Shown here: piece after piece, positions 3,966-55,814 of the stretch | How the letters are laid out: each line of letters begins with the position of its first letter | How positions within the stretch are numbered: the stretch's first letter is position 1 | NCBI RefSeq assembly: GCF_964355755.1 | Contig: NC_092680.1 | Location: 16,315,045-16,379,044 of the forward strand | Direction of reading: 5' to 3' | Source: Antedon mediterranea | Taxonomy: Eukaryota > Animalia > Echinodermata | DNA: 64,000 bases | Notes under the pieces: generated by a model | Seen by the model: only the letters and a program-made list of their open reading frames with translations | Database searches by the model: none | Told to the model about the DNA's origin: nothing | Translations under genes and position numbers: made by a program

Positions 3966-4766
3966 GCGTGTTTAAACATTATACTACAAGTTACAATAAT
4001 AATTATTATTAGTAAGAAAACGTGTAATAACATGGTAGTATTTCAAACAAGCTACCCTCTCGGATTAATAATGGAACGATCCATTTGAAATATATCTGAG
4101 ATCTGAGTTTTCTAGACACCCAAAACGATTATCCAGATACAATTCTATCTACAGAATATTTATGACCCCTATCTGAATGTTTGGATGACGAAAGAGCCAT
4201 TCCGGATGGTTTAATTTACAAGAAACAAAATTACCCATTTTGCTAAATTGTATTATAATTAAATTGCATAATTTCTATAATTCGACTCGTCAATTAAAGG
4301 ATTAAGTATTTAATAGTTTATCGTGCTTATAAATAAAGTCTTATTTGAGGCTTAAGGAGTGATCAAGTTGAAAGAGTCGGTCGATTTACTTTTTAACCAG
4401 CAGATTTAAACAGGCTGCGATTGTATTTGCATGGGTCGTATGTTGCATAATTTCTGACTGTAGGCCTATTTCCTAAATTCAAATGAACCAACCCCTAAAC
4501 TCTAAATCATTTTTACGCTGCAGCATAAAGAACAAACTATATTGAAATGCTTTTTACTCAATATACAAAATAAAAATATTGTCAGAACTAAATCATAAAC
4601 CAATCTGTAAAAGCAAATGGGTCATATTTAATTTAATTTAAACAGAAGCATTACTACCGATGGTTTGTTCAAATTCAACACTGTAACTAATTCCTTACTA
4701 TTCAATTAAAACGATATTATAAAATAATCGTTATTTTACTATTACTATTACGGTTGAGATATAATT

Positions 4767-5501
4767 AAACAAGGCCAACAGCCATTAAGTCGAGTTCTAC
4801 AATGCATAGTGATACCGGACCGACAGACAAACAGACCGACAGACAGACAGACCGACAGACAGACCGACCGACCGACATAGTGAACTATACTGACCGAAAT
4901 TACTGAACATGTTTAAAAATGTTGAAATGTTTAAAAACATTTATATTTTTTTAATTTACACGTGCGTAGCCTGTCACTTTTGACGTGCTCGTATAACGTA
5001 ATTTCGAGTTGAAAAGTAAGTCAAGAAAACAGAAATCGGGCAAGAAGAATGCGCAATAACATTTAACGCGCAGTGCGCGCGCAAAAATCTGCGCACTCAT
5101 GGCAATTTTGTAAACGCTTAAAATTGCCTGAAACGTACTCTTATTTCATCGAAAATAAATTTTGAAAATTTTAAGCGCGCTTACGCATGCGTTACATGCG
5201 CTATGCACGTAATTGTATTGCCATTTGATGATTTATGCCCTGAAATTTATGAGTACCAAATTTTATTTAATTGTGATTCATGGTTGTTAAGATATGATTA
5301 CAAACGTGATTTCGTTAAATCGTGCGTAGACCGCGTAATTTTTTATTGCGCACCGTGAAAACATAACCACATCGATTCCTGGCCATAAGGAATATTCTGT
5401 GAAAAATTAACTTAGCTAGATTAAACTGATATCAAGATAAGGTCATAAAGCGATAAAACGCATAGTGATACCGGACCGACAGACAGACCGACAGACAGAC
5501 C

Positions 5502-5532
<31 letters not shown>

Positions 5533-5574
5533 CGACCGACATAGTGAACTATAGAGTCGCTTCCACGCGACTAA
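4767..5574. mobile_element. HINE/DINE-like element, family A, copy 1
   Basis: Near-identical to 6155-6951 and 30339-33501. Two (GACA/GACC)n blocks, 3' hairpin AGTCGC-TTCCAC-GCGACT, subterminal AGTCG(C)GTG/CACGCGACT, A-rich ends, no TSD. Confidence 0.85.
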
Positions 5575-6951: not shown

Positions 6952-7005
6952 AAATAAAATTGGTCCACTGTAAACCAATATTAATTATAAATCCAGAACT
7001 TATAG

Positions 7006-8640: not shown

Positions 8641-8681
8641 CTAAACAATAAAAATGACGAAACCTGTGAGAATGAGAGAAA

Positions 8682-8754
8682 GCCCCTAACTGAGATTCGA
8701 ACCCGGAACCTTCTGCTTGATATGCAGATGTTCTAACCATTAGACCACCGGGGC
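8682..8754 (-). pseudogene. tRNA-like sequence (anticodon loop ATATCAA), diverged copy
   Basis: A box TGGTCTAATGG, B box GGTTCGAATC, anticodon stem TCTGC/GCAGA. Related to 11744-11815. Confidence 0.55.
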
Positions 8755-14989: not shown

Positions 14990-17900
14990 ATGCCCGACCA
15001 AAATCTGATCGAGAAGCAGCCGTTTTTGCGAGATAATGGTAAGATACGTTGAAAGTTTATGATGCAACTGCCTACTCAGTTCCTATTTGTGTACATCCAT
15101 ATGTGTTTGAAAACTTAAATTAATAAATACTCTTTAATTTATAACTATTTCGAACAGTTAAAAAAAACCTTTAAATCACTTTTGAAAAGTTCACCTTACT
15201 TGTCAATTCATTCATTCATATCATTCATGTCGTTATATTTCGTATTATACAAAATAAATTAAGTTGATCAAAACGTTGAGATTAAAATGAAATATTATAT
15301 GCAAACTAAAAACAAGTTTGTTTCCAGAGCAAACTTATTACACCCAGTGTTATTTGCTCTTTGTTTTTCTACATTTTTTAGATAATTCACGAACGTTGAA
15401 AATTCGCTATGTAATAACATTTCTATGTTTTGTTGGAAGTACTTTAATTTATGCTGCCAGAGTAAACTGGAGTATAGCTATACTGTATATGGCACGTCAA
15501 GAAAGTGACAATACGAATTCCACAGATTCTGAAGTAAATGAAGGCAGCAGCCAAATAGTAAGTTTCATTTTTGACACTACTATTGGACTAGGCCTATATA
15601 TTTCTATTCATGTTATATTAAGTTCTTTAACGTGCACTATATGTACACACGGGACAAAGCTTATCAAACACTAAAAGTACGATTTATTGGTTCTCATTGA
15701 ACAGTAAATGATATTTCAATAGCCTTCACTCTTGTTAAGATTGTAAATAATCACGGGATAAACAGCTTTCATGTTTATGAAGATTGTATAGGCTTATAAT
15801 AGAAAATACTCACGGTAGACAGTTCTTTTCTTTTTCCACAAAGGGCCTACTCTAATTCTATGCTAACCCATTACATCAGACCTATACTGTATTTCCAGTA
15901 AAAAAATTCTTTACATACGATAATAACATTTTGTTGCATTGCGGGAGCTGCTGCTGCCCACCTTATTAATTTACATTCTTCAATGATATAATTACTATAG
16001 TTTCAATTTTTAATTTGTAGAATTACGGTAACGATATTAGGTAGGTTTCGCAACCTTACGAATACGATAACGAAAACGGATAGGTCACACATTTGTGAAA
16101 CTTTTGAGCTGATCCCCATTTCATATTCGTAAAGCGTATTCGTGTTGACGAATCGTCGTCGTGGTCCTGTGAGTCATGACTGACCCTTTGTGCTCCTGCC
16201 TATGATGACATTCCACCCATATCTATCCTGAGCATAGAGAGAAGCTGTGCACACATCCAATCCTGTGATCTCTCTAATACCATCAGTCCATCTTATCTTC
16301 TGTCTACCACGTTTTCGCTTGCCTTCTACATGACCTTGTGCAATTACCTTTTCCAAGTTGTCACCTTCTCTCCTGGCAATATGACCAAAGTACTGAAGTT
16401 TGATCTTATCAACCTTCTGGCATAGGTTGACTCTGCTTCCAATGTGGTTGTTAACAAATTCATTTGACTTATGCTCCTTCCACGATATCCTCGACAATCT
16501 CCTCCAACACCACATTTCAAAAGCTTTGATCTTCTTTCTATCTGCAGCTCCAAGAGCCCATGTATCAGATCCATAAGTGGCAATCGGAAATACCAATGCA
16601 TTCATGATATGAATCTTTGTGTTTCTTGAGATCCCTCTATCCTTCCAAATGTTGGTACGACCTATTGTGGATGTTCTAGCCATAGCGAGACGACGTTTTA
16701 TTTCCTCTGAGCTTCCTCCAGTGTCAACAATCAGGGAGCCAAGAAAGTTGAAGGTGTTGACTACTTCTATGTCCTCTCCATCTGCTTGAATGCGATTTTC
16801 ATTCTTCCTTCCACTTATCATTACTTTCGTCTTCTTGACATTGAGGTAAAGACCATATTCCTCACTGGATTGCTTTACTTTTTCAATCAGATCTTGGAGT
16901 TCTGCCGCAGTTCTTGCAATTAAGGTTGTGTCATCTGCATATCTCAGATTATTTAATTGCCGGCCACCGATAGATATCTGCCCCTCGTAGCCATCTATGG
17001 CAATCCGCATGATGTATTCTGCGTAGACATTAAAGAGATACGGTGACAGGATACATCCTTGGCGTACTCCTTGACCTATCGTAAACCAGTCGCTATCTCC
17101 ACAATCTGTTCTGACCGTGGCTTCCTGACCATCATATAAGGATTTTATTAAGACAATCAGATATGTTGAGAAGCCCATTTTGCGCATTACTCTCCACAAT
17201 TTCTGGTGTTGAACACAGTCAAAAGCCTTTGTGTAATCTATGAAGCAGAGGAAAGTGGCTGCTGAAATTCCATGGTCTTCTCCATCAAATTCCTCAAGTT
17301 TCCAATCTGATTTCTCGTTCCTCTTCCTCTCCTAAATCCAGCTTGCTCTGGTGGTAATTCACTTTCTAACTTATTCCTGATTCTATCTGCTATAGGCCTA
17401 ATGTGGAGCAGGACTTTACTAGCATGAGAGATAAGTGAAATGGTACGGTTGTTAGCACATTCCCTTACATCCCCTTTCTTCGGTAATGGGAGAAACACTG
17501 CCTTTTTCCAGTCTTCGGGCCATTCTTTACTCTTCCAGATCTTGTTGCACAATCTATGGATGATAACAACACCTTCCTCTCCACTTTCCTTCAGCAATTC
17601 TGCCTGGATGTTATCTACTCCTGGTGCTTTACCATTTCTTAACTTCTTCATTGCATTATCAACTTCACAGAGAAGAATATCTGGGTCATCTTCAAAATCT
17701 TGCTGTTCTCTCTCCTCCTGTGTATCATCATCTTTGGATGCATACAACTGTTCACAGTATTCCTTCCACCTTGTTTTGATTTCATCTTCTTCCGTCAAGA
17801 TGTTACCATCTTTGTCCTTCAGAACATTGATCCTGGTGCTAGGTTTTGAAGTCAGTAGCTTGATGTTTTTATACATGTCTTTGGTGTTGTTTGTAGCGCT

Positions 17901-20900
17901 GTCTTTCTCCACCTCGGCACATCTCTGTCTGATGAACTCTGTTTTGTCATTTCTGATTCGTTTCTGGATTTCTCTTGATAAATCCCGGTATTCTCTTTTC
18001 CTCTCTGCACTTTCCAGTCCTTTTTCTTTGACCTCTCTCCTCTGATCAGCCAGGGCAAATACCTTGTCACCAGTCATATTCGTAACTACAAAACGAGTAT
18101 AGTTTTTGATCTATTTTGCACATTTTGCATTTGAAACAGGAATGATTCATGATTATAATATAATTATAGATTTATTGAAAGTAATTTACTAAAGTAATTT
18201 ACTAAAATGCCAGGTCAATTTTGATAAATAGCAGTTTTTAAAGTCCTCACTCGCTTTGATGTTACGCTAGGCCTAGGCAGCCAAGCACCAGGCAACACGT
18301 ACCTGCACTTCGCTCAAATTTACCGCAGTCATATTTTGGACGGCGCCCTCAATATTTCGTTACCATGTGAAACAGATTTTTACTGGCTTACGAAAACGAA
18401 TACGTGTGACGTGCGTGACGTATCCGTTTTCGTTATCGTATTCGTAAGATTGCGAAACCTCTCTAATATTTACTAACTTTTGAACCCAAAGCTGCTAATA
18501 ACTATAGGAACGATTTATTATAAAATTGCGGGTATAAAAACAAAAAGTACTATTACACGTTCGTATAATTTAGTAGGCCTATACGTATACTAAAATTGCA
18601 CACCATGTGACTAAAAATCGTTCAGTCAAATGACAGAAATGTATTTATATGTTATATAAAACAAATCGGTGTTTAAGGATGACCAATGTTAATGTGACGA
18701 CCTTCAGAACGTGTTCAGCACAAAATCAGTTTGTAATGTTGTCTATGTTTCAAAATGGTGTTATTAAGCTAATTTTGTATTCTAAACTGTAGATTTAAGA
18801 AAAAACAATCAGAAAAGATAATTATATCTATCGCAGGAGCGCAAGCAATATTATTTTTAAATTAAATGTCTTTCGTTGATTAAACAGCATGCTTAACCGA
18901 GTTAGTATTGTTACAGGTATATACGTTTGACTGGAACATGAAAACGCAACAAATCATTTTAGGTTCTTTCTACTGTGGCTATTCAGTTGGACCTATTCTT
19001 GGAGGTTGGTTAGTTGGAAGATTTGGTGGGTTTTCTATGCTCATGACTGGAATATTGTTTACAACTTTTCCCATGCTAGTAACCCAGTTTGCTGCACATT
19101 TTGGCGTTGGTTTTGTAATATTGACCAGAATTATTGATGGCTTTGGACAGGTATATTATCCAACTTTATGTTTTTGAAACTTGATTTAATTGAGACATTA
19201 ATGTTATTATTATTATATATTATTATAATTGTATGAAGTTCAATATAGAATGTATTGCAAAAAGTCACAAATGTCAACGTTCTGTTATTACCCGAATGCT
19301 ATTTTTTCTAGGGTATTGCATATCCAGCAAATTTAGTCTTGATTAGAAATTGGTCAAAAGCAGATGAACGTAATACGCTATTAGCTATTGCTTTTTCAGG
19401 TATATTTTATATTTACTGTAGCCTACGTTTCATTTGCATGTAGGCCCTATCTGTTTAATGTATTATCGTGTTTTTTAATCTTGGAATACAAATTTCAATT
19501 ACTGTGTATTTGACAATAAATTTGAACTTGAAGCCACTTTTGAAATGGATTGTACTCACTGTTGTAGCCCTAGTGTTACAAAAATATGTTAATTGTATTT
19601 TAGGTTGTAGTGTAGGACCAATACTAACCAGTTATATCTCCACCTGGCTGTGTTCATCTGAGTTTATGGGCGGTTGGCCCTCCACATTTTATTTATATGG
19701 TAAGTTTGAATCTTAATCTTCTTGAATTTAAAAGAAGATGCAAGTGCTATGAACAATTTAGTAAATTAATAACAAAAAATAAAACGATCGAAATGTCATT
19801 GACTAACAATATCATGTGGAAATAACTGTACGTTTACGTCTTCAAAATCTTTAAGTTTGTACCATCCATACATTTCGAGATTAAACACAAGAATTGAAAT
19901 AGCGAAGGTAACACCAAGAGACTTGATTCCTGGTAATGTGGTAGACCTAGGATGTATATGTATGTTTTTTCTACGCTGCAATATCTTACAAATGTGTTCT
20001 GTTTACAGGGACGATTGGTGTTGTCTGGTGTGTTGTGTGGTGTATTGTGGGATCAAAAACCAATATGCAGTCAAATTTACAAGTAAGACATTAATATAAA
20101 CTTAACAATGAAATAGGCCTACACAACTCATATTGTGATACAATAGGATGTCTGATCTAAAAATAGAAAATTTTGGATGTTGAAAGTTTCATTATTGCTT
20201 TATAATTTAAGTAATTACTCTTTTTTCGTAATTTAGATGTATTCAGAAGCTGTAAGGTTTTTTTTTACAGTGTATACTGGTTATTGATTCATCATTTAAA
20301 AAAAGTATATTAATTATTTCCTTTAATTGATTATTAACATCATTTTGAATCATTGCATCTTCTAAATCTGTAAGCAACTTCTAATTTAGTTATAATTTAT
20401 TATAAGTCTTTATACTTTAAGATTATATAATATTTATACTATGATACTACAGCATATGCCGTTCATAACTTTCACGTAGGCCTACAGGTAACCACACAAG
20501 TTAACTTCATTCGATTGGATTCTAATGTTTGGAACAGAAACCGGAGAATAATGTACAGAGTGTCGAGAAAGTGCCTTACCCCATGTCACATTATCATTTA
20601 GACAGAATTTATAATCCCCAAATTGAATGTAAATTTCTAAACTCGCCAATATGTAATGGATTTACATTATGTTATATTAACATTATAGCCTACTCCCAAA
20701 ATCAAAGGACTGTTACAAGAAATTACCATGACATGCGAGCTGAGCATCCCGTTGTTAGATTTTCTTGATCATACTCTGATCCCAGCTGCATCATAATATT
20801 ATGTTACAAATGTATATTTTTATTTTTATTAAACCATAGGACAATTACAATTACGAAGTTCCATGGAAATTGATGACGTCACCGCCTGTTATTACTTTGT

Positions 20901-23236
20901 ATTTCGTACATTTTGTCTTTGATGCTGGATACATATTACTTATTACAGACATTCCGACGTTTTTTAACTCAATTTTAAATTTTGATTTAGAATTGGTAAG
21001 TTTCTAAAACAGTGAAAATTCAATAATACTAAGCCAAATAAACTTGTTTTTCTTTCGTTGTATAAAAATGTGTACATTAACACGTGAAAACATAAAACTG
21101 TTGGTTTAAAGAATTCTGAATATGGCTCTGTATAGGTCTGTTTATTGAATAATATACTGCTAAATAGAATATGTTAACGTTGATATAAAGTAATGTTAGT
21201 AAGAGTATACACATTTATAATTGTCTGCAATATTTGACCACTGTCAATACACAACACTTATTACCTGACTGGGGTATAATAATATAAAAACATTTTTAAA
21301 GTTACAATCTAACATAAAAACAATCAAGTTTAAACGCAAGAAAAAGTGTTTTTTCAGCTTGTTAATCGTTTTTGCGATATGAATGTTAAGACATTTATGT
21401 TCCTTTAATAAGTGTTGAGAAAGTCATATTGCAACTCAAAATGAGTAAGGCATGACTGAGCCAACATCATCAAATGTAAGCATTTTATGATAGAAAACTA
21501 TATTTAAATCATTGTTCAAAATCACGTGATGCTACGTCTAGTTGTCCGACCAACAAACCCCATAATGAAAGGAACGAAGTATACTGCTTCATACATTATG
21601 CAAAGTTTTGTTTAAACTATTGTCCCCATGCAGAATGATAAATCAATACAAATTGTTTAATATTTGACTGTTCATAACAATAATGCATTAGTAAGTCAGG
21701 AAGAACTTAAATTATCAATACATTCTTTTTATTTCTTTTTTTTACAGGCAGGATTACTAAACATGGCGCCTCATCTGTGTGTGCTGTGCATGACAGTCAT
21801 AGGTGGATTGCTTGGAGACTATTTGATTTCACACGACAAATTGAGCATACTAGGAACCCGAAGATTACTCAATACATTTTGTACGCACAAAACATGCTAG
21901 CAACTTTAGCTCCTATACTGTCTCGACTAGCATATAAATATCGAACACTGTATGAGTGACATAGCTATGCAGATTATCTGCAGTAATTAGTGAATACATT
22001 GCATTATTTGATGTTGGAATAACATCATCAAATACTCAATCATTAGGGCCTAACCACCTGGTGAATGAAGTATAGGCCTACTCCTCGTGAAACAGAACCG
22101 ACGTAGGCCAACGTTACCGTCGTTTACCAAAGCAAAGTTATCTTCACTTGACATTGGTCAGCTTGCATGCGATGAACTGCGCTCGCGTCCTTACGTTCGT
22201 CCTAGTGTGATCGGAACACGTTTAAAGATTGGTTCCTACTTGATAGAACGCAAGTACTGGTTAATTAATTGATCAATCACAATAGATTAACAGTTTATCT
22301 TATTCAATGAAAACCAACAGCGATAATCACCGGCACTTACATCTGAACTGTCGCAATTGATTGGTCAAATCACTTACGTTGGGCCACGTTACGTTGATAT
22401 TTCCAAGAGAGAAACAATCATTACATTAAACTACCTTTTTATTATTATAATTCTATACGGTAGGTTACATCTTTGCACAATGTCAAAAATCCTCTTTCTC
22501 TCTCTCCCTACCTTACAAAAAAAAACCCACCTCAATCCCACAAACCACACAATATCTTGAGTACATTGCCATTTTCGAGAAAGAAAATGTACTTGAGTTG
22601 CAGTCTTTTTTTTTTTTTCTCAAAGGCTTTGGTCTGACTGCGGTCTTTATCATCATACTGGGCTACGTTTACAACAGCGATCTCTCATTGACCATAATGG
22701 TATTTGCTTTTGGAATATATGGATTCAAATTTGCTGGAGTAAATGCTAATGTACTAGACATTGCACCTTTTCACTCAGGCATAATCATTGGAATGATGAT
22801 TTCGATAGGAAGTATTGGAGGACTGGTTGCAACGACTTTACTGGGAGTATTGACAGAAACAAACGTAAGAACTCATTTTTTCATTTATTTTTGTTTTACT
22901 TTTTATTTTTCAATAAATCCACACAAAAATGTCGGATATGCCACAAAGTGTTGTGTAGAGAAGTTAAAAGATCTATTCATTTTAGCTGTTAAGCCTCAGA
23001 TAAATTAGTCCCAAAGTAGGCTGTAAATAGACTCATACACCATTTTCCTGTAGAAAATATTTACTATAATCTTACTTTACTTTCAGAATACTCTGCGCCA
23101 ATGGAGAGTTGAATTTTGGACTCAAGCTGCATTACAAATATGTGCGTTACTCGCATTTTTTATTTTTGGCAGTGATAAACCGCAAGAATGGGCAAAACCA
23201 CCAGAGGAATCTGCAGATATAGAACGCCAACATTAA
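14990..23236 (+). CDS. SLC17A5-like: SLC17 family (sialin-like) MFS organic anion transporter, paralogue 1, 464 aa, 10 coding exons; exact orthology not established
   Basis: Exons 14990-15038, 15382-15557, 18917-19150, 19312-19399, 19604-19699, 20009-20082, 20840-20995, 21748-21880, 22626-22864, 23087-23236. All introns are GT-AG with consistent phases, total 1395 nt. Motifs: RY..YAARVNWSIA, FDW..Q..ILGSFY, W....ER, GGWPSTFY, VPW, NVLDIAPFHSG, W..F, GS...QEWA. Confidence 0.92.
16037..18466. mobile_element. TIR MITE in intron 2 of paralogue 1 (host of the RTE insertion)
   Basis: About 50-bp TIRs TTAGG(T)AGGTTTCGCAA(C/T)CTTACGAATACGATAACGAAAACGGATA with a TA duplication. Empty site in paralogue 2 at about 46650. 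Confidence 0.85.
16133..18073 (-). mobile_element. 5'-truncated RTE-clade LINE (reverse transcriptase, frameshifted)
   Basis: ORFs 17238-18077 and 16174-17199 encode GKAPGVD, PKKGD, EQAGFR, GVRQGCILSP, YADD and FEMWCWRR. Frameshift near 17255, no endonuclease domain, (ACG)n tail, 12-bp TSD TCATATTCGTAA (16121-16132, 18074-18085). Confidence 0.95.
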
Positions 23237-37495: not shown

Positions 37496-38199
37496 GTCCA
37501 AAGTTCAGGGCTGTATAAACACCCACAATGCCACCACAATGCCACCACAGGACCACTATAGTACCATCTGCAGTGTCAACAGTACCGCCACAGTCCCCAA
37601 GTCATCTCATTTATTTAGTCAGAACCATACAATAAAATACAAAAGTACATAACAACTTTAATTTCAAAGTTGGCCAAGGAAGACAAACTAAATTACTGTA
37701 GCCTGCTGGCCTGCAGTCCAAACTAAGAAATTCAAACAATAAAACAGTACCTAAGTTACTCCGTAAGGTGTATCAGAAGTGATCATCATTTTAGCTAGAT
37801 ATTATCAAATTCTGGATTATGAATGATGATTGATTTCTTAGAATTAATGCATGTCTTTCGTATATAATTATAAAAAAGTTGAGGAAGAGTCATTGCACAT
37901 AATTCATGTATTAGAATTAATTTTTTAAGATTATCAAATCTTTACTCTTTACAGTATTTAATGTTTTTCAAAATCAAAATTCCAACTTTTAAGGATACTT
38001 CCGAGTTTCAATTTTCTATTGTTTATTATAATGTATAAAACTCTACAACATTTATTATAACCCCAACATATTTTACAATAACTTTGAAGCAGAAGGAGCA
38101 TCATGAAAAAAGTTGGTGATGCTCTACTTTTTTCTAGTGTGAAAAGATAAGAAATTTACCAAAATAAATATAAATATATAAATAAGTGGGCATTCTTAC

Positions 38200-41387: not shown

Positions 41388-43125
41388 GGGTGTGTAGAAA
41401 GCGACGACCTCGAATTGGACGACCCCCAACGACCCGGGCGACCTCGAATTGAACGACCTCGAATTGAACGACCCATAACACGAAACCGACGACCCCTATA
41501 GCCTAGCCTAGCCTAGGCCTAAGTGTGGTATAACATCCCGAAGCCGAACATAGCCAAAGATCTTTAAACTATACCTTATTATATAATACTCGCAAGCAAG
41601 CAATTGATTGAAAAAATAGGCCTACAGAAATATCGCCATTTGATACTGATTGTGTCGACACGAACAAACGAAAAGATATGGAACGCCAAAAGTGCATCAT
41701 TAAAACTGCATTCGACATATTAAAAATAAATTAAAAAGAAATAAATATTATACAATACATGGTTAAACCATGGACGTATAATTACATCTCGTCTTCTTAT
41801 AACGAACACTATAGGCCTACCAAGCAGCGTAACATGTGCATGGGGGGATATGACCGGTTGGGCCGCCGACAAGTTGAGCCGCCGGTAATTTCTATGAAAC
41901 GGCCAGTGCGTCTTTTACGACATTTCGCGTAGTGATAGAGTGGTGTCCTATTGTGTCTTGAAAATAAATAATAATGACATACTACAATTTTGTTGGTTTG
42001 AAACAGCAAAGGAAAGTAGTCATATTTAATAATTTAATTGTTTTTAATCTTTCAAGGTAAAAATGCAGTGCACTCCATAATATTTTTCTCGCGTGTATGC
42101 CTACCACGTAAAATCACGTTGTCTCTCAGGACTAATAGAGTATTGATATTCTTCGAATGAGGTTAAATAATTATTATTTTTTATTTACTATCTTTTAATA
42201 TCATATTTTATTGAATTTTACAATGTTAATACACAAAATATTTTACTAAAAAACGGTGATTTTATGCAATTATTTTACTTCAACTGCCGCCTGAGGGGGG
42301 AACATGTTTACGTCATTTTTGGCTAAAAACGATCATTTTCGGTCATGTTTTAGGCCTTATATTTTGGAATCTACAAGTCAGATATTCATAATTATTTCTC
42401 TTTAATTATAATATTTAATAATATATACTAAAAACCGTGATATATAAACTTTGGAATATACATCGTTATATCTAATAATTAATATAAATAGAACTTCTAT
42501 TAAATAGAAACGAGCACCGGCGAAAGTAAGCATTTGGCGTTTCATAGAAAATAACGTTTTTCTGGCGGCGCCTCAACTTGTCGGCGGCTCAACTTGGCCT
42601 AATCCTGCATGGGGAGGGCCATAAGAAAGCTTTACATTTCACACATGCATTGTATACGGTCAAACCATGGAGGTATAAAAATATTTTTACCAAACCATGG
42701 AGCTGGTCAAACCATGGAGGTAATACCTCCGTGGTCAAACCTTACCTGCCACTGAAAAAGGGGCCTGGTTTGCCCTGTTTATGATATTTCGTGTGCTAAT
42801 CGAGTCGAATGCAGTTTTAATGATGCACTCTTGGCGTTCCATATCTGTTCGTTTGTTCGTGTCGACACATTCAGTATCAAATGGCGATATTTCTGTATTT
42901 TTTCAATCAATTGCTTGCTTGCGAGTATTATATAAGGTATGGTTTAAAGATCTTTGGTTATGTTCGGCTTCGGGATGTTATACCATACTTAGGCCTAGGC
43001 TAGGCTAGGCTATTATAGGGGTCGTCGGTTTCGTGTTATGGGTCGTCCAATTCTAGGTCGTCCAATTCGAGGTCGCCCGGGTCGTTGGGGTCGTCCAATT
43101 TGAGGTCGTCGCTTTCTACACACCC
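41388..43125. mobile_element. Mutator-like non-autonomous element with about 330-bp TIRs
   Basis: GGGTGTGTAGAAAGCGACGACCTC... mirrored at 42803-43125. Target duplication (C)CTAAAGGT(G), 8-10 bp. The empty site is visible, inverted, at about 5920-5940. Confidence 0.9.
41846..42605. mobile_element. Nested Mutator-like MITE
   Basis: Imperfect TIRs GGAT...GCCGCCGACAAGTTGAG and 9-bp TSD TGCATGGGG (41837-41845, 42606-42614). Confidence 0.85.
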
Positions 43126-44119
43126 CCTAAAGGTGACTGGAAACAGGCACTTTCCATCAATCAATACAGTGTCCCTTTGGAAGACTGAAGAAAAAACCAG
43201 ATCGTGGGACTCCAGAAAAGAAATAGGTTTTTTAAAACTACTCGTATAAAAAACCTGTACATTAAATCAAATTATGTTGTTAAAATTACAAATCACAATT
43301 TATAACTCTTGCCTCTTGTGCAAAAATGAGGTTTTTTAGACAAGTATTTCTCGAGAAAATGCAATTTCAGTACACTCGTTACTTTAAGACTACTCGCCGG
43401 CTTTTGAAAATTGTCTCCTATCTTTTAACACTAGCCGGTCTGAAAATAATATCATTTTTGTTATTTGTGAAGTTATTAATAAACCAATTGTCATGATTTT
43501 CAATAGGCATGGCCTGAGAGTATATACCTATCTACACCAAAAAATTCAGAATGATAACTTGAAAACTGTAGGCGCTATCGTGCTAACAAACAAATGAATT
43601 TATTAATAAACCAATTGTCATGATTTTCAATAGGCATGGCCTGAGAGTATATACCTATCTACACCAAAAATGATAACTTGAAAACTGTAGGCGCTATCGT
43701 GCTAACAAACAAACAAACAAACAAAGTAAATACTATACTTGGCAAAATTCTTTTTGCCAAGTAACAAACAAAGTAAATACTGTACTATACTTGGCAAAAT
43801 TCTTTTTGCCAAGTAACAAACAAACAAACACACGCTACCGATTACATATACCTCCTTGGCGGTGTGTGGTAAATAATAATCAAGTTAAACAACAAAGAAT
43901 AAGCAAAAAACAACGGACAATTTGGGAAATCAAAGATAACACGTACGTACGTACTATTATTATAAAGTTACTACGAACATGACTCTACATAGGAATATTT
44001 GGACACAATGGCTTCTAGTCCATTCAAAGTCATAACTCTTTCAATATTAATATTGCTCTGCTCGCGTGTCATCATGAGTACTGCCCTCAAACGCCGAAAA
44101 TTAGTTAGTATTTTTTTGC

Positions 44120-45409: not shown

Positions 45410-48400
45410 ATGCCCGACAAAAATCTGATCGAGAAGCAGCCGATTTTGCAAGATAACGGTAAGATACAATGAAAGTTTATGATGCAACTGCCTATCTAGT
45501 TTCTACTTTTGGACACCTATGTATGTGTGAAAACTAAAATTAATCAATGCTCTTTAGCCACTATTTAGAGCTATTTCGAACAGTAAAAAAAAACCTTTAA
45601 ATGACCTTTGAAAAGTCCACCTTTCTTGTCAATTATATTCATTCATTCATATCATTAGTCATTATTTTCCCTTTTATACAAAATAAAATAAATTGAAAAC
45701 CTTGAGATTAAAATAAAATATTATATGCAAACTAAAACAAGTTTGTTTCCAGAGCAAACTTATTACACTCAGTGTTATTTGCTCTTTGTTTTTCTATAAT
45801 TTTTAGATAATTCACCAACGTTGAAAATTCGCTATATAATAACATTTCTATGTTTTGTTGGAAATACTTTAATTTTTGCTGCCAGAGTGAACTGGAGTAT
45901 AGCTATACTGTTTATGGCACGTCCAGAAAGTGACATTACGAATTCCACAGATTCTGAAGTAAATGAAGGCCGCAGCAAAATAGTAAGTAATTGGATTAGG
46001 CCTATATATTTCTGTTCATGCTATATTACGAAAACTGAAGATCTGGACATTCATTTTTTACATGTTATTTAAAACAAGAAATAACATCATCTCTCGATTG
46101 GAGAAATAGTAATCCCTTTGATCATGTGGTGATATCAATAAGTCAGTACTCTCACTGTCTGTGTAGGCCTACAGACCAAGTTCTTTAACGTGCACTCTAT
46201 GTACACGGGACAAACAGCTTATCAAACACTAAAAGTACGATTTATTATTTCCCATTGTACAGTAGGCTAAATAGTATTTTAACAGCTTTCACTTTTGTAA
46301 AGATTGTAAATAATAGAAAATATTCACGGTAGACAGTTATTTTCTTTTTCCATATCCTACTCTAATTCTATGCTAACGCATTAAATCAGAACAAGCCTTC
46401 ACTTTTGTAAAGATTGTAAATAATAAAAAATATTCAATGTAGACAGTTCTTTTTTCCCCACGTAATGGCCTACTCTAATTCTATGCTAACCCATTTTACA
46501 TCTCCAGTAAAATAAATACGTCCTTACATACGATAATAATGTTGTTGCATTGCGGGAGCTGCTGCTGCCCACCTTATATTAATTTACATTCTTCAATGAT
46601 ATAATTAATACTACAGTTTCAATTTTTACTTTGCATAATTACGGTAACGATATTCACAAACTTGTGAACCCAAAGCTGCTAATAATTATAGGAACGGTTC
46701 ATTATAAAATTGCGGGTATAAAAAGTACTATGACACTTTCGTGTAATAGTACGTATACTGATATTGCACGCAATGTGACTAACATTCGTTCAGTCAAATG
46801 ACAGAAATGTATATGTTATGTGTTATATAAAACAAACCATCGGTGTTTAAAGGATGACCGATGTTAAAGTGACGACCTTCAGAACTTGTTCATCACAAAC
46901 TCAGTTTGTAATGTTCTATGTTTCAAAATTGTGTGTTATTAATCCAATTTTGTATTATAAACTGTAGATTTGAGACTAAACATTAAATAAATCCCAGAAA
47001 TGATAAGTATATCTATCGCAAGAACGCACAAGTAATATTATTTAAATTAAATGTCTTTCGTTGATTAAACAGCATGCTTAACCGAGTTAGTATTGTTACA
47101 GGTATCTACGTTTGACTGGAACATGAAAACGCAACAAATCATTTTAGGTTCTTTCTACTGTGCCTATTCAGTTGGACCTATTCTTGGAGGTTGGTTAGTT
47201 GGCAGATTTGGTGGGTTTTCTATGCTCATGACTGGAATATTATTTACAACTTTTTCCATGCTAGTAACCCAGTTTGCTGCACATTTTGGCGTTGGTTTTG
47301 TAATATTCACCAGAATTATTGATGGCTTTGGACAGGTATATTATCCAACTTTATGTTTTTTAAACTTGATTTAATTGAGACATTAATTGTAGGAAGTTCA
47401 ATATAGAATGTATTGCAAAAAGTCACAAATGTCAACGTTCTGTTATTACCCGAATGCTATTTTTTCTAGGGTATTGCATATCCAGCAAATTTAGTCTTGA
47501 TTAGAAATTGGTCAAAAGCAGATGAACGTAATACGCTATTAGCTATTGCTTTTTCAGGTATATTTTCTATTTACTTTAGCCTACATTTCAGGATCTCTTT
47601 CCTCATAATTTGCATGTAGGCCCTATCTGTGTAATGTATTACCGGTATCGTGTTTTTTAATCTTGGAATACAAATTTCAATTACTGTGTATTTGACAATA
47701 AATTTGAACTTGAAGCCACTTTTGAAATGGATTTTACTCACTGTTGTAGCCCTAGTGTTACAAAAATATGTTAATTGTATTTTAGGTAGTAGTGTAGGAC
47801 CAATACTAACCAGTTATATCTCCACTTGGCTGTGTTCATCTGAGTTTATGGGCGGTTGGCCCTCCACATTTTATTTATATGGTAAGTTTGAATCTTAATC
47901 TTCTTGAATTTAAAAGAAGATGCAAGTGCTATGAACAATTAGTACAAACAAATAGTAAATTAATAACAAAAAATAAAACGATCGAAATGTCATTGACTAA
48001 CAATATCATGTAGAAATAACTGTACGTTTACGTCTTCAAAATCTTTAAGTTTATACCATCCATAAATTTCGAGATTAAACACAAGAATTGAAATAATGAT
48101 GTATAGCGAAGGTAAAACCAAGAGACTTGATTCCTGGTAATGTGGTAGACCTAGGATGTATATGTATGTTTTTGCAATATCTTACAAATGTGTTCTGTTT
48201 ACAGGGACGATTGGTGTAGTCTGGTGTGTTGTGTGGTGTATTGTGGGATCAAAAACCAATATGCAGTCAAATTTACAAGTAAGACATTAATATAAACTTT
48301 ACAATGAAATAGGCCTACACAACTCCTATTGTGATACAATAGGATGTCTGATCTAAAAATAGAACATTTTGGATGTTGAAAGTTTTATTACTTTATAATT

Positions 48401-51400
48401 TAAGCAATTACTCTTTTTTCGTAATTTAGATGTATTCAGAAGCTGTAAGGATTTTTTTACAGCGTATACTGGTTATTGATTCATCATTTAAAAAAAGTAT
48501 ATATAGCATAAAAAGCATAAAAAAATGGGAAAAAGTAAAAAATATTATTTTAGCAATGTAAAAATGTATAATTGTTAAACAATAACAGGCTAAAAACAGT
48601 ATAAATACTAAAAATAAGAAAAACAAAAAAAAACTTTAAGCTGCAGAGATAGTTTTCTACTGAAACAAAATTGATATAGATTATTGTAACAAATGTAAAA
48701 GAATGAAATAAAAGTGAGTGAATCTCACAAAAGACAAAAAAAAATAAAAATTATTTCCTTTAATTAATTATTAACATCATTTTGAATCATGGCATCTTCT
48801 AAATCTGTAAGCAACTTCTAATTTAGTTATAATTTATTATAAGTCTTTATACTTTAAGATTATATAATATTTATACTATGATACTACAGCATATGCCGTT
48901 CATAACTTTCACGTAGGCCTACAGGTAACCACACAAGTTAACTTCATTCGATTGGATTCTTTAAATGTTTGGAACAGAAACCGGAGAATAATGTACAGAG
49001 TGTCGAGAAAGTGCCTTACCCCATGTCACATTATCATTTAGACAGAATTTATAATCCCCAAATTGAATGTAAATTTCTAAACTCACCAATATGTAATGGA
49101 TTTACATTATGTTATATTAACATTATAGCCTACTCTCTATGTCAAAGGACTGTTACAAAATCTTACCATGACATGCGAGCTGAGCATCCCGTTGTTAGAT
49201 TGTCTTGATCATACTCTGATCCCAGCTGCATCATGTTACAAATGTATATTTTTATTTTTATTAAACCATAGGACAATTACAATTACGAAGTTCCATGGAA
49301 GAAATTGATGACGTCACCGCCTGTTATTACTTTGTATTTCGCAAATTTTGTCTTTGATGCTGGATACATATTATTTATTACAGACATTCCGACGTTTTTT
49401 AACTCAATTTTAGATTTTGATTTAGAATTGGTAAGTTTCTAAAACAGTGAAAATTCAATAATACTAAGCCAATTAAACTTGTTTTTATTTCATGTATAAA
49501 AATGTGTACATTAACACATGAAAACATAAAACTGTTGGTTTAAAGAATTCTGAATATGGCTCTGTATAGGTCTGCTTATTGAATAATATACTGCTAAATA
49601 GAATATGTTAAAAATGTATTGTCCCTTTGTCAAATTCCAAAAAAAAATTAAAAAAAATATTTCGAAAAAATCATAATAGTTATTAATTTTTACCAAAAAT
49701 GAGTCGGAAAAAAAATCATTTAACTGAAATACAGACGTTTTTTGGTTCAAAAAATAACTTTGACTTCCAGTCAAAGTTTTCTATCAAAACATATCTCATA
49801 ATGCAACAGGCTTGCTTGGCTACTCTGTATGCATAATCATAAAACTTCCTCACGATCTGTGTTAAAACACCTTCTCATCCGTGACGAGTTGTAAACAATC
49901 CTAATTAGCATCATGCATAATGTATACTCATGGTTTGAAATCTTTGTTTACTTTCGTTCGGCGGAACGATTATCCAGACGAAATGTTATCAATTTAATTT
50001 AGCTGTTAATTACGTAAAATTGTTGTTTTTGGCTCGAATTTTCGACTTAAGGTGAATAACTTTAATATTACTTTGATATGGCCAATTTAAATTTAGAATA
50101 TTTTGACCTTTATTTTTTTGTGTTTCAAGGGACAATACATCTTTAACGTTGATATAAAGTAATGTAAAGTAATGTTAGTAAGAGTACACCCATTCAATTG
50201 TCTGCAATAATTGACCACTGTCAATACACAACACTTATTACCTGACTGAGGTATAATAATATAAGAACATTACAAGTTACAATCTAAGTGTAAACGCAAG
50301 AAAAGGTGTTTTATCAGCTTGTTAATCGTTTTTGCGATATGAATTTTGAAATCTTAACATTAAGACAATTAGGCCTATTTTCTTTTAATACATGTTAAGA
50401 AAGTCATATTGCAATTCAAATTGAGTAAGGCATGATTGATGATTGCATAATTGATATCTATTTAAGCATTTTATGATACAGAAACTATATTAAAATCATT
50501 GTTTTGTTTAAAAGTTCAAAATGACGTGATGCTATACGTCTAGTTGTCCGACCCACAAACCCTATAATGAAAGGAACAAAGTATACTGTTTCATACATTA
50601 TGCAAAGTTTTGTTTAAACTATTGTCCCCATGCAGACTGATGAATCAATAGAAATTGTTAATATTTGCCTGTTCATAACAATAATGCATTAGTAAGTCAG
50701 GAAGAACTTAAATTAATATTTTTCTTTTTTTTACAGGCAGGATTACTAAACATGGCGCCTCATCTGTGTGTGCTGTGCATGACAGTCATAGGTGGATTGC
50801 TTGGAGACTATTTGATTTCACACGACAAATTAAGCATACTAGGAACCCGAAGATTACTCAATACATGTTGTACGCACAAAACATGCTAGCAACTTTAGCT
50901 CCTATACTGTCTCGACTAGCATATCAATATCGAACACTGTATGAGTGACATAGCTGTGCAGATTATCTGCAGTAATTAGTGAATACATTGCATTATTTGA
51001 TGTTGGAATAACATCATCAAATACTCAATCATTAGGGCCTAACCATCTGGTGAATGAAGTATAGGCCGACTCCTCGTGAAACAGAACCGACGTAGGCCAA
51101 CGTTATAAAGGCCAATTTACAAAGATGAGCGGTAACGGTAAGCGGTAATTGTAAGCAAAAAACCGCGTGGCTTTTTCCATTTTACACAGCGCGCGGAGTT
51201 CGCGAACGGAGTGGTGGAAAGTAGGTGCGTGTATGCCTCGAGGATAATGCATGTTACAGTCACTGCTGGCCTGGATGTGACTGACTGTCAGTAGGCCTAG
51301 CACACACAGACCTAAGTTTTAGAGGGAATTGTTGCCTAATAACCTACTAAAATGTATATTTTCTTTTCACTATCCTTATACGAACATTAGTCACGTCGTA

Positions 51401-52881
51401 GGTGTTTGTATTGCTGAATAAAAAGAAGTTGCAAACTAGGCTAGGCCAACTACGGCACTCGTATTTATTGTCGTCTTTCACTCGACGGACGCAAAACAAA
51501 TTGTTGATAGATGACGTCATTTCAATCATGTCGTTGGTTTGCCAGAATCCATAATTACCGCGCGGTATTTTCACAAAATCGAATCTGTTTTGATCCTGAG
51601 CGGATTTCCGCTCAACCGCTTGTCCGCTCCGCGTTCTGTGTAAATGGTCATAAGAAATAACATAGATTCTATTTTTGCGTTTTCCGCTCAACTTTACCGC
51701 TTACCGTTACCGCTCGTCTGTGTAAATTGGCCTTTAAATTGGCCTTTACCGTCGTTGACCAATCATCACAAGCAAAGTTATCATCACTTGACATTGGTCA
51801 GCTTGCATGCGATGAACTGCGCGCGCGTCCTTACGTTCGTCCTAGTGTGATCGGAACACGTTTACAGGTCGGTTCCTACTTGATAGTATGCAAGTACTGG
51901 TTAAGTAATTGATCAATCACAATAGAATAACAGTTTATCTTATTCAATCAAAACCAACAGCGATAATTCACCGACACTTACATCTGAACTGTCGCAATCG
52001 ATTGGTCAAATCACTTACGTTGGGCCACGTTACGTTGTTATTTCCAAGAGAGAAACAATCATTACATTAAACTACCTTTTTATTATTATAATTCTATACG
52101 GTAGGTTACACCTTTGCACAATGTAAAAAATCCTCTTTCTCTCTCTCCCTACCTTACAAAAAAAAACCCCACCTCAATCCCACAAACCACACAATATCTC
52201 GAGTACATTGCTATTTTCGAGACAGAAAATGTACTTGAGTTGCAGTCTTTATTTTTTTTTTCTCAAAGGCTTTGGTCTGACTGCGGTCTTTATCATCATA
52301 CTAGGCTACGTTTACAACAGCGATCTCTCATTGACCATAATGGTATTTGCTTTTGGAATATATGGATTCAAATTTGCTGGAGTAAATGCTAATGTACTAG
52401 ACATTGCACCTTTTCACTCAGGCATAATCATTGGAATGATGATTTCGATGGGAAGTATTGGAGGACTGGTTGCAACGACTTTACTGGGAGTATTGACAGA
52501 AACAAACGTAAGAACTAATTTTTTCATTTATTTTTGTTTTACTTTTTATTTTTCAATAAATCCACACAAAAATGTCGGATATTCCACAAAGTGTTGTGTA
52601 GAGAAGTTAAAAGATCTATTCATTTTAGCTGTTAAGCCTCAGATAAATTGTTCCCAAAGTAAGCTGTAAATAGACTCATACACCATTTTCCTGTAGCAAA
52701 TATTTACTATATAATTTTACTTTACTTTCAGAATACTCTGCGCCAATGGAGAGTTGAATTTTGGACTCAAGCTGCATTACAAATATGTGCGTTACTCGCA
52801 TTTTTTATTTTTGGTAGTGATAAACCGCAAGAATGGGCAAAACCACCAGAGGAATCTGCAGATATAGAACTCCAACATTAA
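45410..52881 (+). CDS. SLC17A5-like: SLC17 family (sialin-like) MFS organic anion transporter, paralogue 2, 465 aa, 10 coding exons; exact orthology not established
   Basis: Exons 45410-45458, 45807-45982, 47102-47335, 47470-47557, 47786-47881, 48205-48278, 49272-49430, 50737-50869, 52269-52507, 52732-52881. All introns GT-AG, open frame of 1398 nt. About 33 substitutions plus one codon indel versus paralogue 1. Confidence 0.92.
49612..50142. mobile_element. MITE with TTAA TSD (Kolobok-like) in intron 7 of paralogue 2
   Basis: TIR A(A/G)ATGTATTGTCCCTT, TTAA on both sides, empty site in paralogue 1 near 21175. Confidence 0.85.
51109..51733. mobile_element. PIF/Harbinger-like MITE in intron 8 of paralogue 2
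   Basis: TIR AGGCCAATTTACA...GAGCGGTAACGGTAAGCGGTAA with TAA/TTA flanks. Empty site in paralogue 1 near 22115. Confidence 0.85.
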
Positions 52882-55814
52882 TTTCTATTTCATTCAGTAG
52901 AAGAGTCTATTAACGGGTGGATTATGCCTATTCGTTGGTCAGTGTATTCCCTCGGCTTGGTATTTCTTAGAAATGACCAGAGCTAATATTTGATTAATAT
53001 GGAATTCCACAGTCAGTCCATTTTTTTTAAAGTTTATTGAATAACATTTTGTATTTTATTTTTCTGATCTTTAGGCCTAAGTAATATTTTATTTTACAAA
53101 TATATTTTGTAGTAGTATAATTCCCCGTACAGTCCAATGAATAATTAATGAGTTAGTTTGAATAATAATAGGCCTATTTGTATTTATTAGGGTATTTTTT
53201 ATATTTAAATTATTCTCGACAAAATGTTTCAGTGGGCATAATATAACGCAAACAAGTTTCACATCTGTATACGTGTAAACTCTGTAAATGTAATGATTGC
53301 TCACCTGCGATGAATGCAATAGAAGTTAAAAGTACGCGTTGTTTTGATTCATGAAAATGGTATAACGTCAACGTGTAAACAAATTAAAACATAGGTAACA
53401 CCTGTAATCGATTAACACAGAAATGCAGAGTTTGCAACGTTTCTGTATCATCACCATAACTGTGTCAAGAAGGTACCCGTAGGCATACAGTCAGTGTACG
53501 TTTACGTAACAAATGTTCATTCAGTAATGATTTAAAACTGCATCCTAATCTCAAACGGATCTCAAAACCATTATATCTTGTGAAGTTCCATCGATGGCTG
53601 AACTTATTGGTAAGCTAACTCGACCTTGCCGAAGGCTCACTATTTGTTTGTGAAAGCAGAATAGCAGATTTAACAATGGTTTCGCTAATAATTGTAAACG
53701 TTACTTCATATATAAGTACGCAGGAAATTGCACTGTCGTATGGCTATTTCGGGATGGGGTGTAACGAAACCTAAGACCACGAAAGCTAAGACCCCCTAAG
53801 ACCTAAGAAGATAACGAAAGCTAAGACCCAAGACCTGAGATTACAAATTCTAAAATATACTACAGCTTAAAAACAATAGGCCTACTTGTTTATCCATAAT
53901 TTTAAACATATATATGTTTTATTTATTACCATAAATATATAATTATATACTACCGCAAAACATAGATAAACTCACATTATTTTTGCCCGGTGAGTAATGT
54001 ATATTTTTTCTTTACACAACAAACAAACTTCACGGTTTTTTGTTGGTATATTTACTCCATTGTGTTGGTTCAGATGATGTTTTTCTTTCGCACCTGCCTT
54101 TTGTATTTTGAATTTTATCCTGAATACCACACTTTAAAATTAGGACTTATAAGTACTTTAAGAAGGAGAGACACATAAAAACAAATAAAAAAATTGATAA
54201 TTTTACAGACGTGTTTCTTTGTATACTGTAACTCCTCCACATGCTCAATGTTTTTGTTTCTATGGAGCGCCAAAAGAGCAACAATAATAGTACAAGTATA
54301 AAAACAGAAAGAAAACGAAAAAAAAAAAAACTTTTGAAATTAAAATTTATTTTCGAGTATTTATTCCTTTGTACTAGTATCGTAATATTATCATTACAAT
54401 TTTAATTTTACATTGTTCCATCCACACTGTAAAAAGATGGACTCCACAGAGTTTTCAGGCCTCTATATAATTTTTGCTCTTTTGACGTTCCATAGAAACA
54501 AAAAAATTGGACATGGGGTAGGCCTAGGTTAGTCAAGCGAAATTGTATTGTGTGCGAGAAAAACGTCTGTAAAATCATCAATTTAAAAATGTATTTTTTA
54601 CTTTTATGTGATTATTAGAATTATATAATGCTAGACATGTAGATTTGACCAAAATTGTCAGGCGTCAATTTTTTTTCGCTAGAGTCTACGTCTACGTCTA
54701 CGTTGTGACGTAGTTTACTCTTTTTGTACGCAATGATGTGTTTGCATATTTTCCACCTGTGAGTTGGTTTAAAATAGTTGTACAGTAGGGGAGTTCCGGG
54801 CAGGAGGTTGTGCACGATGGAAATAACGTGAACGGTACCGAGTAATTAAATGTGTTGCGTATTTATTGCTTGAGCATAACAAGAGCATAGTAGAAACTAC
54901 AACTGTGTAGGCTTCTATATTTATTATTTAATAAGCTTTAAAATTGGCCTTTGTTTATTAAAATTGGTTTATTATATGAAGAGTTATTATTGAAAACATA
55001 CGAGATACTTTTAACTCAGGAAATCTTCATTTTGAGAAAATCAACAACGAAGTAGCGACGCCGATTGGCCTAGCCTAGACCGCCGATCAACGCGACAAGA
55101 CGCTCTGTCAAAACTCGATATTTTCTTCTCAATAACGGCAAACTAGTCGAAAATGTATCACTATGTGGTACATAATATTATATTTTTAGTTATTTTTAAA
55201 AAAATATACGGATAAAAATAACGATTAACTTCCTAAATATTCACAAAATGTTTAAACGTTCATTCGAGAAACTACGATGGAAGACATGCTGATTCATCTT
55301 AAACAAAAGGGTCAGCCAGAGAGCGTAATTTATCTCTCTAGCCAATCACAATCAAAGATTCACAAATTCTTGTTAGAAATTTCAGCAACCTAACACCTTA
55401 ATAAACCAATTTCCATGGCTAGATTAAATAAGGTTAGGTTGTTAAAAATTATGGTAGCTGATATATTTTCGAACAGTTAGGTACCAAACATGACGTGATT
55501 CGGATTAGCGGTTTGTTTACAAAAGCGCCGTAAACAAAGTTGATTTTTGAGTGAACAAAGTTGATTTTTGAGTGAACAAAAATAGAGTTTCCTAATGATT
55601 TTCAATGGAAACGACTGCAAAAAAATACACATACTTGTGATATTTTTTATGAACAAGAGTTTGATATGTTAAAAATAAGTGTTTATAGTATCGTTTTTTA
55701 TTGAAATTTTAAAATGGATAGGTTAGGCCGTTTTCCACATTCTGAACTTCAAGGCTAAATATCTCAAAAGTGCGAGTTACGAATCTGCGTCGCTTTTGTG
55801 ATGCCAGGCCTCAT

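What the first reader, a model, noticed from the sequence alone, without database searches (positions are those of the whole stretch)
4461..54526. Recurrent TA to TAGGCCTA micro-insertions: a footprint-like mutational system
Seen: I counted at least 32 exact TAGGCCTA octamers by eye, a few of them duplicated pairs (e.g. 4461, 9337, 9385, 15589, 17393, 18268, 18574, 25118, 25448, 28521, 29376, 29393, 34716, 41617, 41812, 50370, 53072, 53877). About one is expected from base composition. Internal comparisons show they are insertions at a TA: 53877 AACAATA-GGCCTA-CTTG vs 25911 AACAATACTTG; 53072 CTTTA-GGCCTA-AGT vs 23443 CTTTAAGT; 50370 vs about 21395; 41617 in one TIR vs its partner TIR near 42895; and 17393 adds two codons (RP) inside the RTE RT. 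Related 5-bp forms also occur as polymorphisms: TA-GGC-TA at 46263 vs about 15705, and TA-CTG-TA at about 43778 vs 43731. Established: Tc1/mariner excision leaves TA-CAG/CTG-TA. Inference: TAGGCCTA, TAGGCTA and TAGCCTA are excision scars of a very active, unidentified TA-targeting cut-and-paste element with GGC(C) ends, or of another templated insertion process. The 6-bp form preserves reading frame and could add dipeptides to proteins.
Basis: partly seen in the sequence, partly recalled or inferred. Interest (0 to 1): 0.8.

Follow-up and report, generated by a model that had tools for sequence, protein, structure and literature searches.

The report
Pogo transposon exit scars, feather star
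The eight-letter word TAGGCCTA is about fifty times too common in this stretch of DNA, likely from a feather star, and where copies can be compared it is repeatedly six letters added at a plain TA; these are likely scars left when pogo-type jumping genes with GG…CC tips cut themselves out, which would make the genome a natural record of past jumps.

Summary
Observation confirmed: 32 exact TAGGCCTA (26 independent) against 0.66 expected. Three clean TA/TAGGCCTA indels lie between duplicated copies. A fourth, in an RTE reverse-transcriptase frame, is absent from 120 of 120 homologues and from all four sequencing runs laid, so it is an insertion.

No intact donor or transposase is in the window. 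Elsewhere I found TA-flanked elements with GGGG…CCCC tips that encode a DD35D HTH_psq/DDE_1/PHD (Fot-like pogo) transposase. The best match to one full-length copy is an Antedon mediterranea protein, and the window's sialin-like exons match that species at up to 100%. DNA around those tips is 11-fold enriched for TAGGCCTA, without a control set, and tips and scars share a G before the TA.

Best reading: end-joined excision footprints (TA+GG+CC+TA) of GG-tipped pogo elements. GGC-tipped donors remain possible. No filled allele was seen, and none of the 32 lies in a host exon.

The mechanism is known; accumulation at this density was not found in my ten paper searches. The scan noted the same scar before in at least three other genomes.

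The parts
4461..54526 (.). 32 exact TAGGCCTA palindromes (26 independent): 4461, 9337, 9385, 15589, 17393, 18268, 18574, 20114, 20477, 22073, 24439, 25118, 25448, 27562, 28521, 29376, 29393, 34716, 41514, 41617, 41812, 42990, 45997, 46164, 48310, 48914, 50370, 51292, 53072, 53169, 53877, 54519
   Evidence: duplicated pairs
17393..17400 (-). 6-nt insertion inside an RTE retrotransposon reverse-transcriptase frame, adds Arg-Pro; the one site whose direction is proven
   Evidence: 120 of 120 homologues lack it; 6 letters left out in contigs of 4 of 4 runs, two studies
53877..53884 (.). TAGGCCTA where the duplicated copy (~25914) has a plain TA
53072..53079 (.). TAGGCCTA where the duplicated copy (~23446) has a plain TA
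41617..41624 (.). TAGGCCTA in one arm of a MITE; the partner arm (~42897) has a plain TA
46263..46269 (.). 5-nt form TAGGCTA where the duplicated copy (~15705) has a plain TA
   Evidence: 'TAGGC put in behind 15704' in 3 runs of one sample
22073..22080 (.). shared old scar; the duplicated copy at 51062 reads TAGGCCGA (one substitution)
19441..22052 (.). longer forms TAGGCCCTA (19441, copy 47617) and TAGGGCCTA (22044, copy 51033): 2 independent sites, about 0.2 expected
41499..41521 (.). stack of three TAGCC units ending in TAGGCCTA, mirrored in the other arm of the MITE at 42990-43012
43778..43784 (.). TA to TACTGTA insertion, a CAG-tip type footprint of another family
47640..47647 (.). TA to TACCGGTA insertion (plain TA at ~19464): the same 2+2 layout with CC…GG tips
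54786..54815 (+). orphan sequence resembling a GGGG-tipped pogo end; no partner end; resemblance not significant
   Evidence: 4 of 60 simulated windows score as high

Best explanation
TAGGCCTA is a six-base insertion at TA sites and is most likely the end-joined excision footprint of Fot-like pogo transposons whose ends read TA|GG…CC|TA. The element inserts at TA and duplicates it (shown for the family elsewhere). On excision the transposase would cut the non-transferred strands two bases inside each end (inferred from Tc1/mariner), leaving a GG overhang on both donor ends. These cannot pair, so end joining would keep both and fill in, giving TA-GG-CC-TA; losing one base gives TAGGCTA or TAGCCTA, and an occasional 3-base cut gives TAGGGCCTA or TAGGCCCTA (inferred). 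Scars then drift, are copied by duplications and decay by point mutation (shown: shared, copy-specific and decayed scars). Confidence in 'footprint of a TA-targeting IS630-Tc1-mariner element' is about 0.85; in 'GG-tipped Fot-like pogo with a 2-base overhang' about 0.68.
For: Insertion polarity. Only TA is duplicated, and the plain alleles have no GG or CC nearby to copy from. The G-C spectrum peaks at G2C2 (32 vs 0.53), with G2C1 11 vs 2.5, G1C2 10 vs 2.7, G3C2 and G2C3 2 each vs 0.1. A donor family exists: 7 of 8 loci examined hold a full element with TA outside GG…CC tips, 0.5-3.2 kb; DDE_1 in 4 of 7 ORFs, HTH_psq in L034, PHD in 2; DD35D spacing. Among 121 related transposases, the best match to the full-length L034 protein is P0186, labelled Antedon mediterranea (47%, 595 bits), and exons of the window's first sialin-like copy match A. 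mediterranea P0243 at 98-100% where the alignment stays inside the exon. In 71 non-redundant tip-bearing loci (224 kb) TAGGCCTA is 17 vs 1.5 expected. A feature not in my search pattern is shared: G before the TA in 35 of 74 tips, 21 of 54 window scar flanks (background 19%, p 6e-4) and 17 of 34 locus scar flanks, but only 27 of 126 CAG/CTG scar flanks in those loci (p 0.002). Published basis: Tc1/mariner footprints equal the first or last 2-4 bases of the element (PMC6943129, passages); Tc1 leaves TACATGTA (PMC3520976, passage); the pogo element Passer leaves 0-4 bp footprints (PMC9976928, passage).
Against: No intact GG-tipped element and no transposase in the window. No filled allele seen at any scar; the read output shown was cut. 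The ends of the Antedon element behind P0186 are unknown, and all 7 animal Fot-like rows I saw in the PMC7386202 table have other tips (6 CCG, 1 CAA). The 121 proteins were selected by likeness to L072, not L034. The 11-fold enrichment in tip-bearing loci has no control set of animal DNA without such tips, and CAG/CTG forms are enriched there too (63 vs 29). The purine bias at -3 of tips (53 of 74) is not seen in scars (29 of 54, p 0.04; 18 of 34 in loci). Inside the window the G bias of GGCC scars does not differ from that of CAG scars (p 0.33). The 54786 tip is not significant. The overhang length of this family is untested.
Confidence: 0.68

Rival explanations
1. Footprints of a different TA-targeting element with GGC…GCC tips and 3-base overhangs: pairing of the terminal GC bases gives TAGGCCTA, and full overlap with a central mismatch gives TAGGCTA or TAGCCTA.
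For: Predicts the same three words. Micro-homology would explain why one product dominates. Analogous to Sleeping Beauty's 3-base footprints (PMC6943129, passage).
Against: No convincing TA|GGC…GCC|TA element in the window or among the fetched AT-rich loci. The Gao 2020 table has no TA-flanked family with GGC at both ends among 4 of 5 'GGC' places seen. The GGCC-ended MITE at 51103-51745 sits at a TTA/TAA site, which does not fit plain-TA alleles.
Confidence: 0.15
2. Hit-and-run marking: a pogo-type transposase, perhaps domesticated, inserts and re-excises within one germ line or aborts integration, so scars arise without filled alleles ever segregating.
For: At least 26 scars and no intact donor in 64 kb. 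Stacked scars suggest re-use of one TA. The Antedon protein P0186 is a full-length 671-aa frame.
Against: Ordinary transposition seems enough: scars arise at 0.5-0.9% of the substitution rate. With assumed values (about 3 substitutions per gamete) that is 0.02-0.03 scars per gamete, matched by some 300 copies excising at 1e-4 each. The stack may be slippage of a 5-base unit.
Confidence: 0.1
3. A non-transposon cause: a selected protein-binding motif, local template switching, telomere-type addition, or a library or assembly artefact (StuI-like AGGCCT junctions).
For: The word is a perfect palindrome, as many binding sites and ligation junctions are. Sites cluster in and near the two genes (about 10 per 1000 TA there, 0-2 in the other large regions).
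Against: It is gained inside a retrotransposon coding frame and a MITE arm. Plain alleles offer no local template. Short-read contigs carry window sequence across 18574 and 20477 without change (table 8). Scars are shared by copies 94% alike and decay by substitution (31 one-mismatch neighbours vs 15 expected). The metazoan telomere repeat TTAGGG (recalled) does not give GGCC.
Confidence: 0.07

Closest known systems
Tc1 excision footprint TACATGTA of Caenorhabditis elegans (PMC3520976, one passage citing earlier work)
   Same: TA + two terminal bases + two terminal bases + TA; an 8-base palindrome, +6 bases
   Different: CA…TG tips instead of GG…CC; called rare there, while here it is 0.5 per kb. 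TACATGTA itself is absent from this window.
Sleeping Beauty footprints TACAGTA/TACTGTA (PMC6943129 passages; bioRxiv 10.1101/659086 abstract)
   Same: TA target, 3' overhangs of element bases, end joining; these words are also enriched here (31 vs 12) with one clean indel
   Different: 3-base overhangs that pair, +5 bases; the abstract's eight SB footprints include no 2+2 form
Fot-like pogo transposons, DD35D (Gao et al. 2020, PMC7386202; passages and rows of supplement file 3)
   Same: DDE_1 with 35-residue spacing, HTH_psq, TA target, short TIRs; GG tips are listed for red algae, oomycetes, Fusarium FotD and Entamoeba (the last with TA/TA)
   Different: The animal rows I saw have CCG or CAA tips; the GGGG-tipped, PHD-bearing animal-type group found here was not among the rows seen; the passages read give no footprints
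Passer, pogo DD35D (PMC9976928, passages)
   Same: pogo element shown to leave 0-4 bp footprints
   Different: another pogo family; assayed on plasmids in human cells; the footprint sequences are in a figure I could not see
Natural excision sites in rice (PMC4423477, abstract and passages)
   Same: genome comparison used to read past excisions
   Different: rice excisions are mostly heterogeneous deletions and fillers; here one fixed product dominates

Membership tests
IS630-Tc1-mariner excision footprint | TA duplicated around the added bases, with a plain TA as the empty allele | tested here: met
   3 clean 6-nt indels, one 5-nt indel, and 17393
IS630-Tc1-mariner excision footprint | derived state (insertion, not deletion) | tested here: met
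   one site polarised: 120 of 120 RTE homologues lack Arg-Pro; the other indels are not polarised
IS630-Tc1-mariner excision footprint | added bases equal the terminal 2-4 bases of a TA-flanked element | tested here: inconclusive
   met by GG…CC elements in other animals' DNA; none intact in the window
IS630-Tc1-mariner excision footprint | filled allele at the same TA | tested here: inconclusive
   not seen in one 9.6-kb read lay, output cut; no genome held
Fot-like pogo as donor | DDE_1 transposase, DD35D, HTH_psq, inside TA-flanked TIRs | tested here: met
   L034 and L061 full elements with DDE_1; L034 has an internal deletion that removes the first catalytic Asp region; L072 and P0186 keep it
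Fot-like pogo as donor | family present in the host lineage with GG tips | tested here: inconclusive
   P0186 (A. mediterranea) is the best match of L034 among 121; its DNA ends could not be fetched
Fot-like pogo as donor | target-site preference matches scar flanks | tested here: inconclusive
   -1 G shared, -3 purine not shared
Fot-like pogo as donor | 2-base staggered cut | not testable with these tools
   needs an excision assay
PIF/Harbinger footprint | 3-base TAA/TTA target duplication (recalled) | tested here: not met
   only TA is duplicated, and two plain alleles are not TAA/TTA sites (41617, 53877)

The most novel reading that the evidence does not exclude
A widespread GG-tipped, PHD-bearing pogo lineage has acted as a steady, sequence-programmed mutator in feather stars and other animals. 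It writes one fixed palindrome into about 1% of intronic TA sites, perhaps by hit-and-run excision steered by its PHD finger to chosen chromatin, and it seeds Arg-Pro, Gly-Leu or stop insertions in genes. The scars would then be a datable, genome-wide map of where a transposase has been.
Probability: 0.2. Interest if true: 0.75.

Novelty: new variant of a known kind. Interest (0 to 1): 0.45.

Why it matters
Excision is the half of cut-and-paste transposition that genomes rarely record in countable form. A fixed 8-base scar at about 0.5 per kb would let one count and date past excisions, map target preference and read germ-line end-joining outcomes straight from assemblies. It also warns that a top 'motif' in echinoderm DNA may be a mutational scar and not a binding site, and it points to an animal pogo group with GG tips that I did not see in the one survey table I read.

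Tried and rejected
Genome-wide counts: no genome is held. Reads could be laid on only one 9.6-kb stretch, so most sites were not checked in other individuals. No transposase among 138 window ORFs of 62 aa or more; tblastn of six pogo ORFs against the window gave nothing better than E 0.78. TA|GG…CC|TA pairs in the window were interiors of larger repeats or weak matches; the 27139-27983 pair has a weak match and straddles another MITE's end. The orphan tip at 54786 is not significant, has no partner and its flank has no DNA match in the loci. Two scans of viral contigs gave 3 unrelated-looking hits and 0 hits. No clean scar-versus-plain pair was found among the metagenome loci. CpG ratio per 2-kb bin showed no evident link to scar density by inspection; the low density outside the genes is confounded with young repeats (0 scars in 772 TA beyond 55 kb, p about 0.03). 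Harbinger, local template switching, telomere addition and library artefact were rejected (see rivals). Ten paper searches found no report of this scar; for I saw 40 of 283 listings, none on transposon scars by title.
Full report
Setting. The window holds two tandem sialin-like (SLC17/MFS) genes, 14.5-27.6 kb and 44.9-54.5 kb, 94.3% alike over 7,771 aligned bases. Exons of the first copy match a protein labelled Antedon mediterranea at 98-100% where the alignment stays inside the exon, so the DNA is very likely from that feather star or a very close relative. The rest is MITEs, satellites, an RTE fragment and a Gypsy element. No whole genome is held.

The count. TAGGCCTA occurs 32 times, against 0.66 in dinucleotide shuffles, none of 100 above 5. 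Six are copies in duplicated DNA, leaving 26. It is the commonest palindromic octamer in the window, and 32 of 134 GGCC words sit in this context. The spectrum of TA-Gn-Cm-TA peaks at G2C2, with G2C1 11 vs 2.5, G1C2 10 vs 2.7, and G3C2 and G2C3 2 each vs 0.1. TACAGTA+TACTGTA are 31 vs 12.

They are insertions. Pairwise alignments give clean 6-base gaps at 53877, 53072 and 41617, a 5-base gap at 46263, TA to TACTGTA at 43778 and TA to TACCGGTA at 47640; 50370, 18574, 14814 and 15789 are messy. Direction is proven at one site. 17393 adds Arg-Pro to the RTE protein; 120 of 120 homologues that span the column lack it, and contigs of four runs (two samples at most, two studies) leave out those 6 letters at full depth. 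Scars are also old DNA: five exact ones are shared by the two gene copies, one has decayed in one copy (22073 vs 51062), and one-mismatch neighbours are 31 vs 15 expected. Short-read contigs match the window across 18574 and 20477, which argues against an assembly artefact. The plain alleles have no GG or CC nearby, which excludes local template copying.

Looking for the donor. The window has no intact TA|GG…CC|TA element and no transposase. Earlier scan notes on other genomes pointed to pogo elements with GG tips, which moved me from my first idea of GGC tips. One orphan sequence at 54786 looked like such an end. 91 loci under 50% GC carry one conserved end type beginning TA|GGGGAG (three loci were dropped by hand: one duplicate, two that looked non-animal). 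Seven of 8 loci examined hold a complete element, 499-3,194 bp, with TA outside both tips. Their ORFs hit DDE_1 (4 of 7), HTH_psq (1) and PHD (2), with DD35D spacing, which matches Fot-like pogo as defined in PMC7386202 (passages). Ten of 128 loci match the A. mediterranea transposase P0186; this protein is the best match of the full-length L034 element among 121 relatives, 47% over 664 columns from N-terminus to PHD. The ends of the Antedon element could not be fetched. The orphan at 54786 itself is not significant: 4 of 60 simulated windows score as well.

Links between scar and family. In 71 non-redundant tip-bearing loci (224 kb), TAGGCCTA is 17 vs 1.5 and the 7-base forms 34 vs 15.6; CAG/CTG forms are also up (63 vs 29), and there is no control set. 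The base before the TA was not in my pattern. It is G in 35 of 74 tips, 21 of 54 window scar flanks (27 sites; one duplicate pair was left in) and 17 of 34 locus scar flanks, against about 20% background and 27 of 126 for CAG/CTG scars in the loci. Against: the -3 purine bias of tips (53 of 74) is missing in scars (29 of 54; 18 of 34), and within the window GGCC and CAG scars do not differ at -1 (p 0.33). In the published table, GG tips occur in Fot-like and FotD elements of algae, oomycetes, fungi and Entamoeba, but the 7 animal Fot-like rows I saw have CCG (6) or CAA (1) tips (I read search hits in supplement file 3, not the whole table).

Mechanism. Tc1/mariner transposases cut the non-transferred strand a few bases inside the element, and end joining leaves footprints equal to its first or last 2-4 bases (PMC6943129, passages). 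Tc1 leaves TACATGTA (PMC3520976, passage) and Passer 0-4 bp (PMC9976928, passage). With GG tips and a 2-base stagger, the overhangs cannot pair; keeping both gives TA-GG-CC-TA, and losing or gaining a base gives the minor forms. That step is inferred. GGC tips with a 3-base stagger and GC micro-homology predict the same words; the two distinguishing 10-base forms are both absent. The TA to TACCGGTA indel at 47640 fits the same 2+2 rule for CCG-tipped relatives.

Rate and consequences. Two to four copy-specific TAGGCCTA arose while 444 substitutions accumulated, 0.5-0.9% of the point-mutation rate. With assumed, not measured, values this needs only some hundreds of copies excising at about 1e-4 per generation, so no special machinery is required. 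Density is about 10 per 1000 TA in the two gene regions, 23 in the MITE at 41.4-43.1 kb and 0-2 in the other large regions; age and chromatin cannot be separated here. None of the 32 lies in 2,431 bp of host exons, about 1.8 expected. By codon phase the insertion gives Arg-Pro, Gly-Leu or a TAG stop.

Novelty. The footprint mechanism is textbook. Ten searches found no paper on this scar or on its genomic accumulation; the library lacks most subscription journals, and Repbase/Dfam were not available, so the GG-tipped family may be catalogued there. The scan holds 20 earlier findings of the same word in at least 3 genomes, none in this one; I did not use them as evidence. Verdict: real feature, new variant of a known kind, donor family probable but not shown in this genome.

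Noticed in passing
window 41380-43137: 1.75-kb MITE with ~330-bp arms 93% alike, GGG…CCC ends and a 10-base direct repeat outside them (Mutator-like by recall). Both arms carry the same stack of TAGCC units, so the stack predates arm copying or homogenisation; a multicopy MITE like this would inflate genome-wide scar counts.
   Followed up: partly
window 47640-47647 vs 19464: Clean TA to TACCGGTA indel; animal Fot-like pogo elements in PMC7386202's table have CCG tips, so this may be the sister scar. Only 2 such words in the window (0.7 expected).
   Followed up: partly
window 51103-51745: 643-bp insertion specific to the second gene copy, AGGCC-type ends at a TTA/TAA site with a 12-base tandem duplication at its right end; Harbinger-like MITE by recall.
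   Followed up: partly
window 16034-18465: 2,432-bp insertion specific to the first gene copy: a high-copy MITE with a 5'-truncated, frameshifted RTE retrotransposon nested in it; the RTE is 89% identical in protein to an intact element elsewhere (P0001).
   Followed up: partly
window 56524-59616: About 550 bp present twice in inverted orientation (97% over the longest 401 bp) around the 3' part of a Gypsy element; inverted rather than direct terminal repeats.
   Followed up: no
window 14990-23233 and 45410-52878: Tandem pair of sialin-like (SLC17) genes, both with open exons in the parts matched.
   Followed up: partly
window 35737-37496: 28-base satellite, 63 copies, 94% matches, open in several frames for over 400 codons.
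   Followed up: no
L034:76-3273, L061:63-2129, L014:3083-6023: Full-length GGGG-tipped pogo elements in metagenome contigs; the transposase ends in a PHD finger, which could read histone marks and steer insertion (untested).
   Followed up: partly
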